From a virus (Duplodnaviria > Heunggongvirae > Uroviricota > Caudoviricetes), in the IMG/VR virus record IMGVR_UViG_2529292921_000005, positions 1-13,062 of that record: 13,062 nt of DNA, one strand, 5' to 3'. The notes beneath the pieces are model-generated. The model saw only the letters and a program-made list of their open reading frames with translations, had not been told where the DNA came from and did not search any database. How positions within the stretch are numbered: the stretch's first letter is position 1; every line of letters starts with the position of its first letter. Both the position numbers and the translations under genes were made by a program. Below, one piece after another: positions 4,019 to 8,459 of this stretch.

Positions 4019-4450
4019 ATGTTTCTGAAAACCGAACAATTTGAATATAACGGTGTGTCCGTCACGCTTTCCGAGCTGTCTGCGCTGCAGCGTATCGAGC
4101 ATCTTGCCCTGCTGAAACGACGGGCAGAACAGGCTGAAGCCAGCGGTAACCTGCAGGTGAGCGTGGAAGACCTTGTCAGAACCGGCGCGTTTCTGGTGGC
4201 GATGTCCCTGTGGCATAACCATCCACAGAAAACGGAGTCACCATCAATGAATGAGGCTGTGATGCAGATCGAACAGGAGGTGCTCACCACCTGGCCTGCT
4301 GATGCCATTGCCCGGGCGGAAGACGTGGTGTTGCGTCTGTCCGGGATGAGCGGGGCTGTTCATGTGGATACGGATATCACCGAAGTGGCGAAAAATAACG
4401 CGCTTACTGATGATGATTTTTCTGCGGGAAAGTCTTCGACGGCGAGCTGA
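4019..4450 (+). CDS. G: tail assembly chaperone G
   Basis: 143 aa; GGAGG RBS; MFLKTE.FE.NGV.VTLSELSALQRIEHLAL matches lambda gpG. Confidence 0.9.
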   Translation: MFLKTEQFEYNGVSVTLSELSALQRIEHLALLKRRAEQAEASGNLQVSVEDLVRTGAFLVAMSLWHNHPQKTESPSMNEAVMQIEQEVLTTWPADAIARAEDVVLRLSGMSGAVHVDTDITEVAKNNALTDDDFSAGKSSTAS

Positions 4451-4890
4451 ATTTTGCCCTCAGACTGGCGCGAGAGATGGGGAGGCCTGACTGGCGCGCC
4501 ATGCTTGCCGGGATGACATCCACCGAATATGCCGACTGGCGACATTTTTACCGCACGCATTATTTTCAGGATACCCAACTGGATATGCATTTTTCCGGGC
4601 TGATGTACGCTGTACTCAGCCTGTTTTTTTGCGATCCGGATATGCATCCCTCTGATTTCAGTCTGCTTGTCCCCCGGCATGAGGAAGAGCAGGTGGAGAG
4701 GCTGGATGAGGACAAAATGCTGATGCAGAAAGCGGCAGGACTTGCCGGAGGCGTCCGGTTCGGTGGGGACGGAGGGGGCGATATTTTATCGTCTGCGGAT
4801 GTGGCGGATGTCATGGTGGATGATGCCGCATTAATGATGGCTTCAGCGGGGATTCCAGGAGGTGTGAGATATGTCCCAGCCGGTTGGTGA
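4019..4890 (+). CDS. T: tail assembly chaperone G-T fusion, produced by -1 frameshift at 4426-4432 (join 4019..4432, 4432..4890)
   Basis: The -1 frame after the slippery site has no stop until 4888-4890 and contains the T-like ORF; its end overlaps the H start, as in lambda. Confidence 0.8.
4426..4432 (+). other. programmed -1 ribosomal frameshift slippery heptamer G GGA AAG (G to G-T)
   Basis: GGGAAAG in the X XXY YYZ register relative to the G frame (codons GCG GGA AAG), 6 codons before the G stop; the -1 frame is open from here through the T ORF to 4890. Confidence 0.8.
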
Positions 4891-7432
4891 TCTTATTATT
4901 GACCTGAGTCTGGATGCGGTCCGTTTCGATGAGCAGATGAGCCGGGTAAGGCGTCATTTTTCAGGACTGGATACTGACGCCAGAAAAACCGCCAGTGCTG
5001 TTGAACAGGGCCTGAGCCGCCAGGCGCTGGCTGCACAAAAAGCCGGGATTTCCGTCGGGCAGTATAAAGCGGCCATGCGAACCCTGCCCGCACAGTTTAC
5101 GGATATCGCCACGCAGCTTGCCGGTGGTCAGAATCCCTGGCTGATCCTGCTGCAACAGGGCGGTCAGGTGAAGGACTCCTTCGGCGGGATGATCCCCATG
5201 CTCAGGGGGCTTGCCGGTGCGATCACCCTGCCGATGGTCGGGGTCACCTCGCTGGCGGTGGCGACAGGTGCGCTGGCGTACGCCTGGTACCAGGGGGATT
5301 CCACGCTTTCAGCGTTTAATAAAACCCTGGTTCTTTCCGGTAATCAGTCCGGACTGACTGCCGATCGTATGCTGACTCTCTCAAGAGCCGGGCAGGCAGC
5401 AGGGCTGACGTTTAACCAGGCGAGAGAGTCACTGGCAGCCCTGGTGAATGCCGGTGTGCGTGGTGGTGAACAGTTTGATGCCATCAACCAGAGTGTCGCG
5501 CGTTTTGCGTCTGCATCCGGTGTGGAGGTGGATAAAGTCGCTGAAGCCTTCGGGAAGCTGACCACTGACCCGACGTCGGGACTGATGGCGATGGCGCGCC
5601 AGTTCCGTAACGTGACGGCAGAGCAGATTGCGTATGTTGCGCAGCTGCAGCGTTCCGGTGATGAGGCCGGGGCCTTACAGGCGGCGAACGATATCGCCAC
5701 GAAAGGCTTTGATGAGCAGACCCGCCGCCTGAAAGAGAACATGGGCACGCTGGAGACCTGGGCAGACAGGACTGCACGGGCATTCAAATCCATGTGGGAT
5801 GCGGTGCTGGATATTGGTCGTCCTGATACCGCGCAGGAGATGCTGATTAAGGCAGAGGCTGCGTTTAAGAAAGCAGACGACATCTGGAATCTGCGCAAGG
5901 ATGATTATTTTGTTAACGATGAAGCGCGGGCGCGTTACTGGGATGATCGTGAAAAGGCCCGTCTTGCGCTTGAAGCCGCCCGAAAGAAGGCTGAGCAGCA
6001 GACTCAACAGGACAAAAATGCGCAGCAGCAGAGCGATACCGAAGCGTCACGGCTGAAATATACCGAAGAGGCGCAGAAGGCTTACGAACGGCTGCAGACG
6101 CCGCTGGAGAAATATACCGCCCGTCAGGAAGAACTGAACAAGGCACTGAAAGACGGGAAAATCCTGCAGGCGGATTACAACACGCTGATGGCGGCGGCGA
6201 AAAAGGATTATGAAGCGACGCTGAAAAAGCCGAAACAGTCCGGCGTGAAGGTGTCTGCGGGCGATCGTCAGGAAGACAGTGCTCATGCTGCCCTGCTGAC
6301 GCTTCAGGCTGAACTCCGGACGCTGGAGAAGCATGCCGGAGCAAATGAGAAAATCAGCCAGCAGCGCCGGGATTTGTGGAAGGCGGAGAGTCAGTTCGCG
6401 GTACTGGAGGAGGCGGCACAACGTCGCCAGCTGTCCGCACAGGAGAAATCCCTGCTGGCGCATAAAGATGAGACGCTGGAGTACAAACGCCAGCTGGCTG
6501 CACTTGGCGATAAGGTCACGTATCAGGAGCGTCTGAATGCGCTGGCGCAGCAGGCGGATAAATTCGCACAGCAGCAACGGGCAAAACGGGCCGCCATTGA
6601 TGCGAAAAGCCGGGGGCTGACTGACCGGCAGGCAGAACGGGAAGCCACAGAACAGCGCCTGAAGGAACAGTATGGCGATAATCCGCTGGCGCTGAATAAC
6701 GTCATGTCAGAGCAGAAAAAGACCTGGGCGGCTGAAGACCAGCTTCGCGGGAACTGGATGGCAGGCCTGAAGTCCGGCTGGAGTGAGTGGGAAGAGAGCG
6801 CCACGGACAGTATGTCGCAGGTAAAAAGTGCAGCCACGCAGACCTTTGATGGTATTGCACAGAATATGGCGGCGATGCTGACCGGCAGTGAGCAGAACTG
6901 GCGCAGCTTCACCCGTTCCGTGCTGTCCATGATGACAGAAATTCTGCTTAAGCAGGCAATGGTGGGGATTGTCGGGAGTATCGGCAGCGCCATTGGCGGG
7001 GCTGTTGGTGGCGGCGCATCCGCGTCAGGCGGTACAGCCATTCAGGCCGCTGCGGCGAAATTCCATTTTGCAACCGGAGGGTTTACGGGAACCGGCGGCA
7101 AATATGAGCCAGCGGGGATTGTTCACCGTGGTGAGTTTGTCTTCACGAAGGAGGCAACCAGCCGGATTGGCGTGGGGAATCTTTACCGGCTGATGCGCGG
7201 CTATGCCACCGGCGGTTATGTCGGTACACCGGGCAGCATGGCAGACAGCCGGTCGCAGGCGTCCGGGACGTTTGAGCAGAATAACCATGTGGTGATTAAC
7301 AACGACGGCACGAACGGGCAGATAGGGCCACAGGCGCTGAAGGCTGTTTATGACGTAGCCCGTAAGGCGGCAATGGATGTTGTGACCGGGCAGATGCGCG
7401 ATGGTGGTCTGTTCTCCGGAGGTGGACGATGA
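4871..7432 (+). CDS. H: tail tape measure protein H
   Basis: 853 aa, identical in length to lambda gpH and near-identical over long stretches as recalled; central coiled-coil region and Gly-rich C-terminal segment; GGAGG RBS. Confidence 0.95.
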   Translation: MSQPVGDLIIDLSLDAVRFDEQMSRVRRHFSGLDTDARKTASAVEQGLSRQALAAQKAGISVGQYKAAMRTLPAQFTDIATQLAGGQNPWLILLQQGGQVKDSFGGMIPMLRGLAGAITLPMVGVTSLAVATGALAYAWYQGDSTLSAFNKTLVLSGNQSGLTADRMLTLSRAGQAAGLTFNQARESLAALVNAGVRGGEQFDAINQSVARFASASGVEVDKVAEAFGKLTTDPTSGLMAMARQFRNVTAEQIAYVAQLQRSGDEAGALQAANDIATKGFDEQTRRLKENMGTLETWADRTARAFKSMWDAVLDIGRPDTAQEMLIKAEAAFKKADDIWNLRKDDYFVNDEARARYWDDREKARLALEAARKKAEQQTQQDKNAQQQSDTEASRLKYTEEAQKAYERLQTPLEKYTARQEELNKALKDGKILQADYNTLMAAAKKDYEATLKKPKQSGVKVSAGDRQEDSAHAALLTLQAELRTLEKHAGANEKISQQRRDLWKAESQFAVLEEAAQRRQLSAQEKSLLAHKDETLEYKRQLAALGDKVTYQERLNALAQQADKFAQQQRAKRAAIDAKSRGLTDRQAEREATEQRLKEQYGDNPLALNNVMSEQKKTWAAEDQLRGNWMAGLKSGWSEWEESATDSMSQVKSAATQTFDGIAQNMAAMLTGSEQNWRSFTRSVLSMMTEILLKQAMVGIVGSIGSAIGGAVGGGASASGGTAIQAAAAKFHFATGGFTGTGGKYEPAGIVHRGEFVFTKEATSRIGVGNLYRLMRGYATGGYVGTPGSMADSRSQASGTFEQNNHVVINNDGTNGQIGPQALKAVYDVARKAAMDVVTGQMRDGGLFSGGGR

Positions 7433-7758
7433 AAACCTTCCGCTGGAAAGTGAAACCCGGGATGGATGTGACATCGGCTCCTTCCGTCAGGGAGGTGCGC
7501 TTTGGTGATAGCTATTCCCAGCGTGCGCCTGCCGGGCTGAACGCTGACCTGAAAACGTACAGCGTGACGCTGTCTGTCTCCCGTGAGGAGGCCACGGCGC
7601 TGGAGTCGTTTCTGGCAGAGCACGGAGGCTGGAAGGCCTTTCTGTGGACGCCGCCTTATGGTTACAGGCAGATAAAGGTGACCTGCGCAAAATGGTCGTC
7701 GCAGGTCAGTATGTTGCGTGTTGAGTTCAGCGCAGAGTTTAAACAGGTGGTGAACTGA
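7429..7758 (+). CDS. M: tail tip protein M
   Basis: 109 aa; ATGA overlap with the H stop; near-identical to lambda gpM as recalled. Confidence 0.9.
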   Translation: MKTFRWKVKPGMDVTSAPSVREVRFGDSYSQRAPAGLNADLKTYSVTLSVSREEATALESFLAEHGGWKAFLWTPPYGYRQIKVTCAKWSSQVSMLRVEFSAEFKQVVN

Positions 7759-8455
7759 TGCAGGATATCCGGCAGGAAACACTGAATGAATGCACCCGTG
7801 CGGAGCAGTCGGCCAGCGTGGTGCTCTGGGAAATCGATCTGACAGAGGTCGGTGGAGAACGTTATTTTTCTGTAATGAGCAGAACGAAAAAGGTGAGCCG
7901 GTCACCTGGCAGGGGCGACAGTATCAGCCGTATCCCATTCAGGGGAGTGGTTTTGAACTGAATGGCAAAGGCACCAGTACGCGCCCCACGCTGACGGTTT
8001 CTAACCTGTACGGTATGGTCACCGGGATGGCGGAAGATCTGCAGAGTCTGGTCGGCGGAACGGTGGTCCGGCGTAAGGTTTACGCCCGTTTTCTGGATGC
8101 GGTGAACTTCGTCAACGGAAACAGTGACGCCGATCCGGAGCAGGAGGTGATCAGCCGCTGGCGCATTGAGCAGTGCAGCGAACTGAGCGCGGTCAGTGCC
8201 TCCTTTGTACTGTCCACGCCGACGGAAACGGACGGCGCTGTTTTTCCGGGACGTATCATGCTGGCCAACACCTGCACCTGGACCTATCGCGGCGGTGAGT
8301 GCGGTTATCACGGTCCGGCGGTCGCGGATGAATATGACCAGCCAACGTCCGATATCACGAAGGATAAATGCAGCAAATGCCTGAGCGGTTGTAAGTTTCG
8401 CAATAACGTCGGCAACTTTGGCGGCTTCCTTTCCATTAACAAACTTTCGCAGTAA
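7758..8455 (+). pseudogene. L: tail tip protein L, disrupted by a 1-nt frame change at the T5 run 7865-7869 (698 nt instead of a multiple of 3)
   Basis: Frame starting at the ATG (7758, TGATG overlap with M) encodes MQDIRQ...GGERYF and then stops at 7961 after unrelated residues; a second frame continues LFFCNEQNEKGEPVTWQ... to the TAA at 8453-8455. The two frames together reconstruct a ~232-aa L-like protein. Confidence 0.75.
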
Positions 8456-8459
8456 TCCC

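What the first reader, a model, noticed from the sequence alone, without database searches (positions are those of the whole stretch)
7790..7961. Frame change in tail-tip gene L at a T5 homopolymer
L starts with a canonical TGATG overlap on M, but after GGERYF the frame runs into unrelated residues and stops at 7961. The L-like sequence (LFFCNEQNEKGEPVTWQ... to the conserved Cys-rich C-terminus) continues in another frame. The switch maps to TATTTTTCTG (7863-7872), where TATTTTTTCTG would restore a single 232-codon ORF. This is either a genuine inactivating mutation, a homopolymer sequencing error, or, less likely, a slippage site.
Basis: partly seen in the sequence, partly recalled or inferred. 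Interest (0 to 1): 0.55.

Follow-up and report, generated by a model that had tools for sequence, protein, structure and literature searches.

The report
One-base deletion breaks prophage tail gene L
A lambda-type prophage tail-tip gene (L) in a 2012 draft E. coli contig is split by the loss of one T from a run of six, which is either a base-calling error or an ordinary decay mutation and not a programmed frameshift.

Summary
The L reading frame starts at 7758, changes frame at a T5 run (7865-7869) and stops at 7961. The rest of L continues in the -1 frame to 8455. Restoring one T gives a 232-residue protein that aligns gap-free with lambda tail tip protein L.

The window is the whole 13,062-bp contig AIEW01000004.1 of the E. 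coli DEC1B draft assembly. T5 is private to it. Nine other contigs with an identical tape-measure protein have T6. So do all 109 matching phage records and all but one of 4,135 matching complete-genome records.

I found no support for a recoding site. T5 is not conserved, there is no X_XXY_YYZ heptamer, no significant downstream RNA structure and no Rfam hit.

Error and real mutation cannot be separated without reads. I lean towards artefact (about 0.55). Two other assemblies that appear to be from the same project carry the same T6-to-T5 change in unrelated L alleles. One of them otherwise shows no indel against a finished genome over 12.2 kb.

Real decay (about 0.41) remains plausible. The contig also has a one-base deletion truncating gene I (9195) and an IS66-family element joined to gene J (12896). 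Either way, the finding is ordinary.

The parts
7429..7758 (+). Gene M (tail tip protein, 109 aa), intact. Its TGA stop overlaps the L start codon (TGATG).
   Evidence: ORF list; Pfam PF05939 on the called gene; annotated 'phage tail protein' in E2348/69.
7758..7961 (+). L start frame. Residues 1-37 (to GGERYF) are authentic gpL. The next 30 codons are out-of-frame and end at a stop at 7959-7961.
   Evidence: Translation; alignment of the repaired protein to lambda gpL.
7865..7869 (+). T5 run, the site of the one-base deletion. It is T6 in every close relative and in all matching phages.
7868..8455 (+). Remainder of L (gpL residues 38-232) in the -1 frame. It includes the four Fe-S cysteines C173, C182, C205 and C212. 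The mechanical ORF in this frame runs 7790-8455 and is deposited as the 221-aa protein EHU19221.1.
   Evidence: cysteine roles from PMC10721106.
8460..9215 (+). Gene K (C40/NlpC-P60 peptidase). It is 251 aa here against 247 aa in relatives, because the deletion at 9195 replaces the C-terminal FV* with SCKNGG*.
9101..9202 (+). Gene I, N-terminal 33 codons, ending at a premature TAA (9200-9202). The cause is a single T at 9195 where relatives have TT.
9203..9747 (+). Rest of gene I in the -1 frame. The gene caller lists it as a 172-aa ORF at 9229-9747.
9808..12895 (+). Gene J (tail tip attachment protein), about the first 1,029 codons of the 1,137 in relatives. The C-terminal part is missing from the contig. 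The open frame reads on into the IS as far as 13005.
12896..13062 (.). End of an IS66-family (ISCro1-like) insertion sequence, starting GTAAGCG. The contig ends inside it.
   Evidence: Window 12895-13062 is 100% identical to the ISCro1 flank in CP133871.

Best explanation
The segment is a normal lambda-type tail-tip gene L whose deposited sequence lacks one T of a conserved T6 run. Translation from the L start therefore leaves the gpL frame after residue 37 and stops 30 codons later.

The loss is unprogrammed. My preferred reading is that it is a homopolymer-length miscall in the 2012 draft assembly of E. coli DEC1B (contig AIEW01000004.1). On that reading the real prophage carries T6 and an intact L.

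**Shown:** the identity of the gene, the exact site, its absence from all close relatives, and its recurrence in other assemblies that appear to be from the same project.

**Inferred:** that the cause is technical rather than mutational.
For: - **Source:** The window is a complete 13,062-bp draft contig of GCA_000249075.2, E. coli DEC1B.
- **Private allele:** Nine other contigs encoding the identical 853-aa tape-measure protein all call a 232-aa L. The seven loci that reach the T run all read T6.
- **Absent elsewhere:** The exact T5 66-mer occurs in 0 of 109 matching phage records. It gave 0 matches to a 36-mer across GTDB species representatives. It occurs in 1 of 4,135 matching complete-genome records.
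- **The one exception is an error-laden assembly:** In that record nearly every neighbouring gene is flagged 'frameshifted'. Its L has a second, compensating indel 38 nt upstream.
- **Same change in the same project:** T6-to-T5 occurs in unrelated L alleles of two other assemblies. One is DEC10F. The other is AIGA01000036.1, which lies in the same accession block. Against finished strain CV839-06, the AIGA contig shows 4 substitutions and only this one indel over 12.2 kb, and 15 of 16 runs of 6 nt or more agree.
- **T6 in finished genomes:** RefSeq complete genomes with that same allele all have T6.
- **Error-prone company:** Most other public T5 instances examined sit in assemblies with pervasive homopolymer deletions.
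- **Sister drafts:** Outside mosaic patches, they show more single-base run-length changes than substitutions.
Against: - The contig is otherwise clean. Of 169 homopolymers of 4 nt or more, 168 agree with two intact relatives, including T7, T6 and A6 runs. A generally error-prone assembly is therefore not demonstrated.
- I have no shown mechanism for a site-specific miscall.
- The sequencing platform could not be established. The genome announcement is not held in the library.
- The same contig has two further lesions in adjacent tail-tip genes. One of them, the IS66-family junction in J, is structural and cannot be a base-calling error.
- The deletion in I is TT to T, which is not a long homopolymer.
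- The indels in the sister drafts lie in a prophage that also carries annotated frameshifts in the E2348/69 complete genome. Part of them may therefore be real.
Confidence: 0.55

Rival explanations
1. The T5 allele is a real mutation. Replication slippage on the T6 run removed one T in a prophage that was already, or was becoming, defective. L is then a true pseudogene, one of at least three lesions in the tail-tip module (L, I and J).
For: - Gene I is truncated after 33 codons by a TT-to-T deletion at 9195.
- Gene J is joined to an IS66-family end at 12896 and lacks its C-terminal part.
- 168 of 169 other homopolymers are correct, so the assembly is not obviously careless.
- Two indels against roughly 110 substitutions relative to the closest full-length relative is a natural-looking ratio.
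- Lambdoid prophages of pathogenic E. coli commonly carry frameshifts and IS insertions (PMC2669165).
- The neighbouring prophage type has annotated frameshifts even in the E2348/69 complete genome.
Against: - No second assembly carries this allele with T5.
- The same deletion appears in at least two other assemblies of what looks like the same project, in unrelated alleles.
- It is essentially absent from RefSeq complete genomes. That pattern is hard to explain by natural recurrence.
Confidence: 0.41
2. The T5 run is a functional slippage site. tRNA-Phe on UUU (7866-7868) slips back one base onto UUU (7865-7867), or RNA polymerase adds a U. Some full-length, wild-type gpL is then still made from the T5 allele.
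For: From the sequence alone, a -1 P-site slip on U_UUU would give exactly ...GGERYFFCNEQ..., the wild-type protein. T5 recurs in several L alleles in public data.
Against: - The state is not conserved. Every isolated phage and every close relative has T6.
- The 0-frame codons UAU UUU UCU do not form an X_XXY_YYZ heptamer (direct reading).
- The 90 nt downstream fold no better than shuffles (z = -0.78, 49 of 200 shuffles fold at least as well).
- There is no Rfam match in the window.
- The recurrences examined are mostly in error-rich assemblies.
- The bona fide lambda-type G/GT site in the same window has the canonical GGGAAAG heptamer (4426-4432) with the T ORF in the -1 frame. That shows what a real site looks like here.
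Confidence: 0.03

Closest known systems
Bacteriophage lambda tail tip protein L (gpL; Pfam PF05100; PDB 8iyk, 8iyl, 8k35, 8xcg, 9e7m)
   Same: After one T is restored, the protein aligns 1-232 to 1-232 with no gap and 228/232 identical residues. The Fe-S cysteines C173, C182, C205 and C212 are present. Gene order is M-L-K-I-J.
   Different: The deposited DNA has T5 instead of T6, so no single ORF encodes the protein.
Frameshifted or IS-disrupted genes of defective lambdoid prophages in pathogenic E. coli (e.g. the O157 Sakai prophage pool, PMC2669165)
   Same: It shows single-base frameshifts and an IS insertion in morphogenesis genes of a lambdoid prophage. Closely related strains carry several such prophages.
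   Different: It is not established here that the L lesion exists in the cell's DNA rather than only in the assembly.
Homopolymer-length errors in draft or long-read-only assemblies
   Same: It is a single-base loss in a run of six, private to one draft. The same site is also shortened in assemblies with pervasive run-length deletions.
   Different: All other runs in this contig are correct, so the error would have to be site-specific.
Lambda G/GT programmed -1 ribosomal frameshift
   Same: Both lie in the tail gene cluster, and both would need a -1 shift to join two frames.
   Different: G/GT has the canonical heptamer GGGAAAG, present here at 4426-4432. From general knowledge, it is conserved among lambdoid phages. 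The L site has no such heptamer and is not conserved.

Membership tests
Lambda gpL / Phage_tail_L (PF05100) | Collinear full-length similarity to lambda gpL | tested here: met
   The repaired protein aligns 1-232 to 1-232 of 8iyk_L, E = 4.5e-157, no gaps. There is a precomputed PF05100 hit on the 221-aa product.
Lambda gpL / Phage_tail_L (PF05100) | Four cysteines that hold the [4Fe-4S] cluster (C173, C182, C205, C212 in lambda) | tested here: met
   Cysteines are present at 173, 182, 205 and 212 of the repaired protein. Their roles are taken from PMC10721106.
Lambda gpL / Phage_tail_L (PF05100) | Position between M and K in the tail-tip gene cluster | tested here: met
   The order H-M-L-K-I-J is the same as in E2348/69 and in nine other loci.
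Lambda gpL / Phage_tail_L (PF05100) | One uninterrupted ORF | tested here: not met
   The frame changes at 7865-7869, with a stop at 7959-7961.
Programmed -1 ribosomal frameshift site | The two-frame arrangement is conserved in homologues | tested here: not met
   T6 and a single ORF are found in all top phage and E. coli hits and in all loci with the identical H protein.
Programmed -1 ribosomal frameshift site | Slippery heptamer X_XXY_YYZ in the 0 frame | tested here: not met
   The 0-frame codons are UAU UUU UCU, so only single-tRNA slippage on U_UUU is possible (direct reading).
Programmed -1 ribosomal frameshift site | Stimulatory downstream RNA structure | tested here: not met
   For 7873-7962 the MFE is -24.5 kcal/mol against a shuffle mean of -22.2 (z = -0.78). 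There is no Rfam match.
Programmed -1 ribosomal frameshift site | Measured frameshift product | not testable with these tools
   This needs a reporter assay or proteomics in a strain with no other L copy.
Assembly or base-calling artefact | Lies in a homopolymer and is private to one draft assembly | tested here: met
Assembly or base-calling artefact | The same site is miscalled in other assemblies from the same project or from error-prone platforms | tested here: met
   DEC10F, AIGA01000036.1, CP039404 and long-read assemblies L019-L027. That AIGA belongs to the DEC project is inferred from its accession block.
Assembly or base-calling artefact | Reads disagree with the consensus | not testable with these tools
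   There is no access to reads, and the platform of the project is unknown.
Decaying (defective) prophage pseudogene | Other inactivating lesions in the same prophage | tested here: met
   Gene I is truncated at 9200-9202, and gene J is joined to an IS66-family end at 12896.
Decaying (defective) prophage pseudogene | The lesion is reproduced in an independent assembly of the same lineage | tested here: inconclusive
   Exact-product look-ups found only this contig for the 221-aa product. For the 67-aa product they found only an unrelated 92%-identical Logan contig. No re-sequencing of DEC1B could be located.

The most novel reading that the evidence does not exclude
The T5 allele is real and recurs naturally, in DEC1B, DEC10F and the AIGA strain. 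On this reading the U-run acts as a leaky or reversible switch. Low-level -1 slippage of tRNA-Phe on U_UUU, or reversion from T5 to T6, would still supply the three gpL copies a tail tip needs. The run would then be a contingency locus that controls whether a prophage can build tails.
Probability: 0.03. Interest if true: 0.55.

Novelty: already known. Interest (0 to 1): 0.08.

Why it matters
It matters little biologically. The gene, its fold, its Fe-S cluster and its place in lambda tail-tip assembly are already described, and single-base frameshifts in homopolymers are routine. The practical value is in curation:
- The 221-aa 'L' protein deposited for DEC1B (EHU19221.1) is a frame artefact of a broken gene.
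- This T6 run, and a neighbouring A5 run, are recurrent sources of truncated 'hypothetical proteins' in public databases.
- This prophage should be scored as defective only on the strength of its IS-disrupted J until the L and I lesions are checked against reads.

Tried and rejected
**Led nowhere**
- Exact 36-mer with T5 across GTDB species representatives gave 0 matches.
- The look-up of the 251-aa K product is not on record.
- The look-up of the truncated J product found only this contig.
- The look-up of the 172-aa I product found three sister drafts. Their K is the normal 247 aa where complete, and their sequences keep TT at the I site. The product is therefore just a short gene call, not the same lesion.
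- I tried to establish the strain's sequencing platform and paper. Four accession or strain-name searches found nothing useful, another gave only irrelevant hits, and the DEC genome announcement is not held.

**Considered and rejected**
- *Programmed frameshift:* rejected because there is no conservation, no heptamer, no structure and no Rfam family.
- *A different L architecture in relatives:* rejected by the gap-free alignment to lambda gpL.
- *A generally error-ridden contig:* not supported by the homopolymer audit.

Full report
**1. What is in the sequence**

The window is a lambda-type head and tail gene cluster. It carries D, E, FI, FII, Z, U, V, G, T, H, M, L, K, I and J in the order of the annotated E2348/69 prophage.

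M ends with TGA at 7756-7758, and L starts with ATG at 7758-7760. From 7758 the translation follows gpL for 37 residues, to GGERYF. It then reads 30 unrelated residues and stops at 7959-7961. The frame containing the ATG at 7790 carries the rest of gpL, FFCNEQNEKGEPVTWQ... through to ...FLSINKLSQ, ending at 8455. The switch lies at a run of exactly five T, 7865-7869, within TATTTTTCTG.

Adding one T gives a 232-codon ORF. Its product aligns 1-232 to 1-232 with lambda tail tip protein L (PDB 8iyk_L), without gaps and with 228/232 identical residues. The four cysteines that hold the [4Fe-4S] cluster in lambda gpL are C173, C182, C205 and C212 (PMC10721106). All four are present.

**2. Where the window comes from**

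An exact-product look-up shows that the window is the entire contig AIEW01000004.1 of assembly GCA_000249075.2. The deposited 221-aa protein EHU19221.1 is named 'phage minor tail protein L [Escherichia coli DEC1B]'. It corresponds to the mechanical ORF 7790-8455.

The closest complete genome is EPEC strain E2348/69, at 98.4% over 12.9 kb. A closer relative is a locus of GCA_900448265.1, at 99.0%.

**3. How unusual T5 is**

- All 30 best phage hits and all 60 best E. coli hits to M+L span one extra base.
- Nine other contigs encode exactly the same 853-aa tape-measure protein, and all call an intact 232-aa L. The seven loci that reach the site all read T6.
- The exact T5 66-mer occurs in none of 109 matching phage records.
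- A 36-mer with T5 gave no match across GTDB species representatives.
- The 66-mer occurs in one of 4,135 matching complete-genome records.

That single record (CP039404) has 'frameshifted' flags on nearly every neighbouring gene. Its L is annotated as intact only because a second indel 38 nt upstream compensates, which garbles 13 residues.

**4. Is it a recoding site?**

A -1 shift is what would be needed. A single P-site slip of tRNA-Phe from UUU (7866-7868) to UUU (7865-7867) would in principle give the wild-type protein. This follows from reading the sequence. Nothing else supports the idea:
- The arrangement is not conserved (section 3).
- The 0-frame codons UAU UUU UCU do not form an X_XXY_YYZ heptamer.
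- The 90 nt downstream fold no better than shuffled sequence (z = -0.78).
- Rfam finds nothing in the window.

For contrast, the window does hold the lambda-type G/GT arrangement. The canonical GGGAAAG heptamer sits at 4426-4432, and the T ORF lies in the -1 frame.

**5. Other damage on the contig**

Alignment to two intact relatives shows a second single-base loss, a T at 9195 where relatives have TT. It stops gene I (ATG 9101) at TAA 9200-9202 after 33 codons. It also changes the K C-terminus from FV* to SCKNGG*.

Gene J is joined at 12896 to the end of an IS66-family (ISCro1-like) element. The match over 12895-13062 is 100%. The contig ends inside the IS, so about 108 C-terminal codons of J are missing from the contig.

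The K-I segment (about 8450-9750) resembles a different lambdoid prophage, the one at 1.077 Mb in E2348/69 and in sister drafts. The rest of the contig follows the GCA_900448265.1 type. This is either natural mosaicism or an assembly chimera between co-resident prophages.

**6. Error or mutation?**

*Points for a real mutation*
- The contig is otherwise clean. Of 169 homopolymers of 4 nt or more, 168 match two intact relatives, including T7, T6 and A6 runs.
- The J-IS junction is structural.
- TT to T is not a typical long-homopolymer error.
- Defective lambdoid prophages with frameshifts and IS insertions are common (PMC2669165).

*Points for an artefact*
- The allele is private to one 2012 draft contig.
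- The 90%-identity cluster of the 67-aa fragment contains 'hypothetical protein ECDEC10F_3522 [Escherichia coli DEC10F]', with the same RYF|SVMSRTKK junction.
- Contig AIGA01000036.1 lies in the same accession block and carries T5 in a quite different L allele. It differs from finished strain CV839-06 by 4 substitutions and exactly one indel over 12.2 kb, and that indel is this one. Fifteen of 16 runs of 6 nt or more agree.
- RefSeq complete genomes with that allele all have T6.
- Three hits at one run, in what appears to be one project's assemblies, against about one in several thousand copies in complete genomes, is hard to explain by natural recurrence.
- The other public T5 loci examined sit in assemblies with deletions in many homopolymers.
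- Sister drafts (AIFB, AIFD, AIEX) show more single-base run-length changes than substitutions outside mosaic patches. Part of that may be real decay, because the same prophage has annotated frameshifts in the E2348/69 complete genome.

I could not establish the sequencing platform.

**7. Verdict**

- The frame break is an unprogrammed loss of one T from a conserved T6 run in an otherwise canonical lambda L gene (combined confidence about 0.96).
- I put an assembly or base-calling artefact at about 0.55.
- I put a real pseudogenising mutation in an already defective prophage at about 0.41.
- I put functional slippage at about 0.03.

Only reads or Sanger sequencing of strain DEC1B can separate the first two. 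Both readings are ordinary, so interest is low.

Noticed in passing
window 9190-9202 (T at 9195): There is a second single-base deletion, TT to T, relative to all relatives examined. It truncates gene I after 33 codons and extends K by four residues.
   Followed up: yes
window 12896-13062: An IS66-family (ISCro1-like) end, GTAAGCG..., is joined to gene J and the contig stops inside it. J lacks about 108 C-terminal codons here.
   Followed up: partly
window ~8450-9750: The K-I segment is near-identical to a different lambdoid prophage type (the 1.077 Mb prophage of E2348/69 and DEC sister drafts). The flanks follow another type. This is either natural gene conversion or an assembly chimera.
   Followed up: partly
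window 4426-4432: The canonical lambda G/GT -1 slippery heptamer GGGAAAG lies near the end of G, with the T ORF (4477-4890) in the -1 frame. This is the known programmed frameshift.
   Followed up: partly
L028 6107 (AIGA01000036.1); protein P0003 (DEC10F): Two other assemblies carry the same T6-to-T5 change in unrelated L alleles. In L028 it is the only indel against a finished genome over 12.2 kb. DEC10F is named as a DEC strain. AIGA is assigned to the project only by its accession block.
   Followed up: partly
L001 7923-8621 (NZ_CP039404.1): RefSeq annotates this L as intact. It actually has GGG to GGGG plus T5, two compensating frameshifts that garble 13 residues, in a locus where most genes are flagged as frameshifted.
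   Followed up: yes
window 7887-7891 (A5 run): Many truncated L fragments in public data shift frame at this A5 run instead (...NEK|VSRSPG...). It is a second recurrent frameshift site that ends at the same stop.
   Followed up: no
L009 885 (AIEX01000023.1): This sister draft has A5 to A4 at a position 8 nt downstream of the window's 9195 deletion. That gives two different private indels in the K/I overlap of related assemblies.
   Followed up: no
window 7863-7872 (wild-type state in relatives): With T6 the sequence forms a canonical X_XXY_YYZ heptamer, U_UUU_UUC, with a -1-frame TAA directly after one further codon (CUG). I know of no function for this.
   Followed up: no
L005 (Logan ERR5984418, 1,619 nt): This is the only other contig encoding the identical 67-aa fragment. 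It is only 92% identical in DNA and has a further single-base deletion in L (window equivalent 8024). It is therefore an independent, error-prone or decayed copy.
   Followed up: partly
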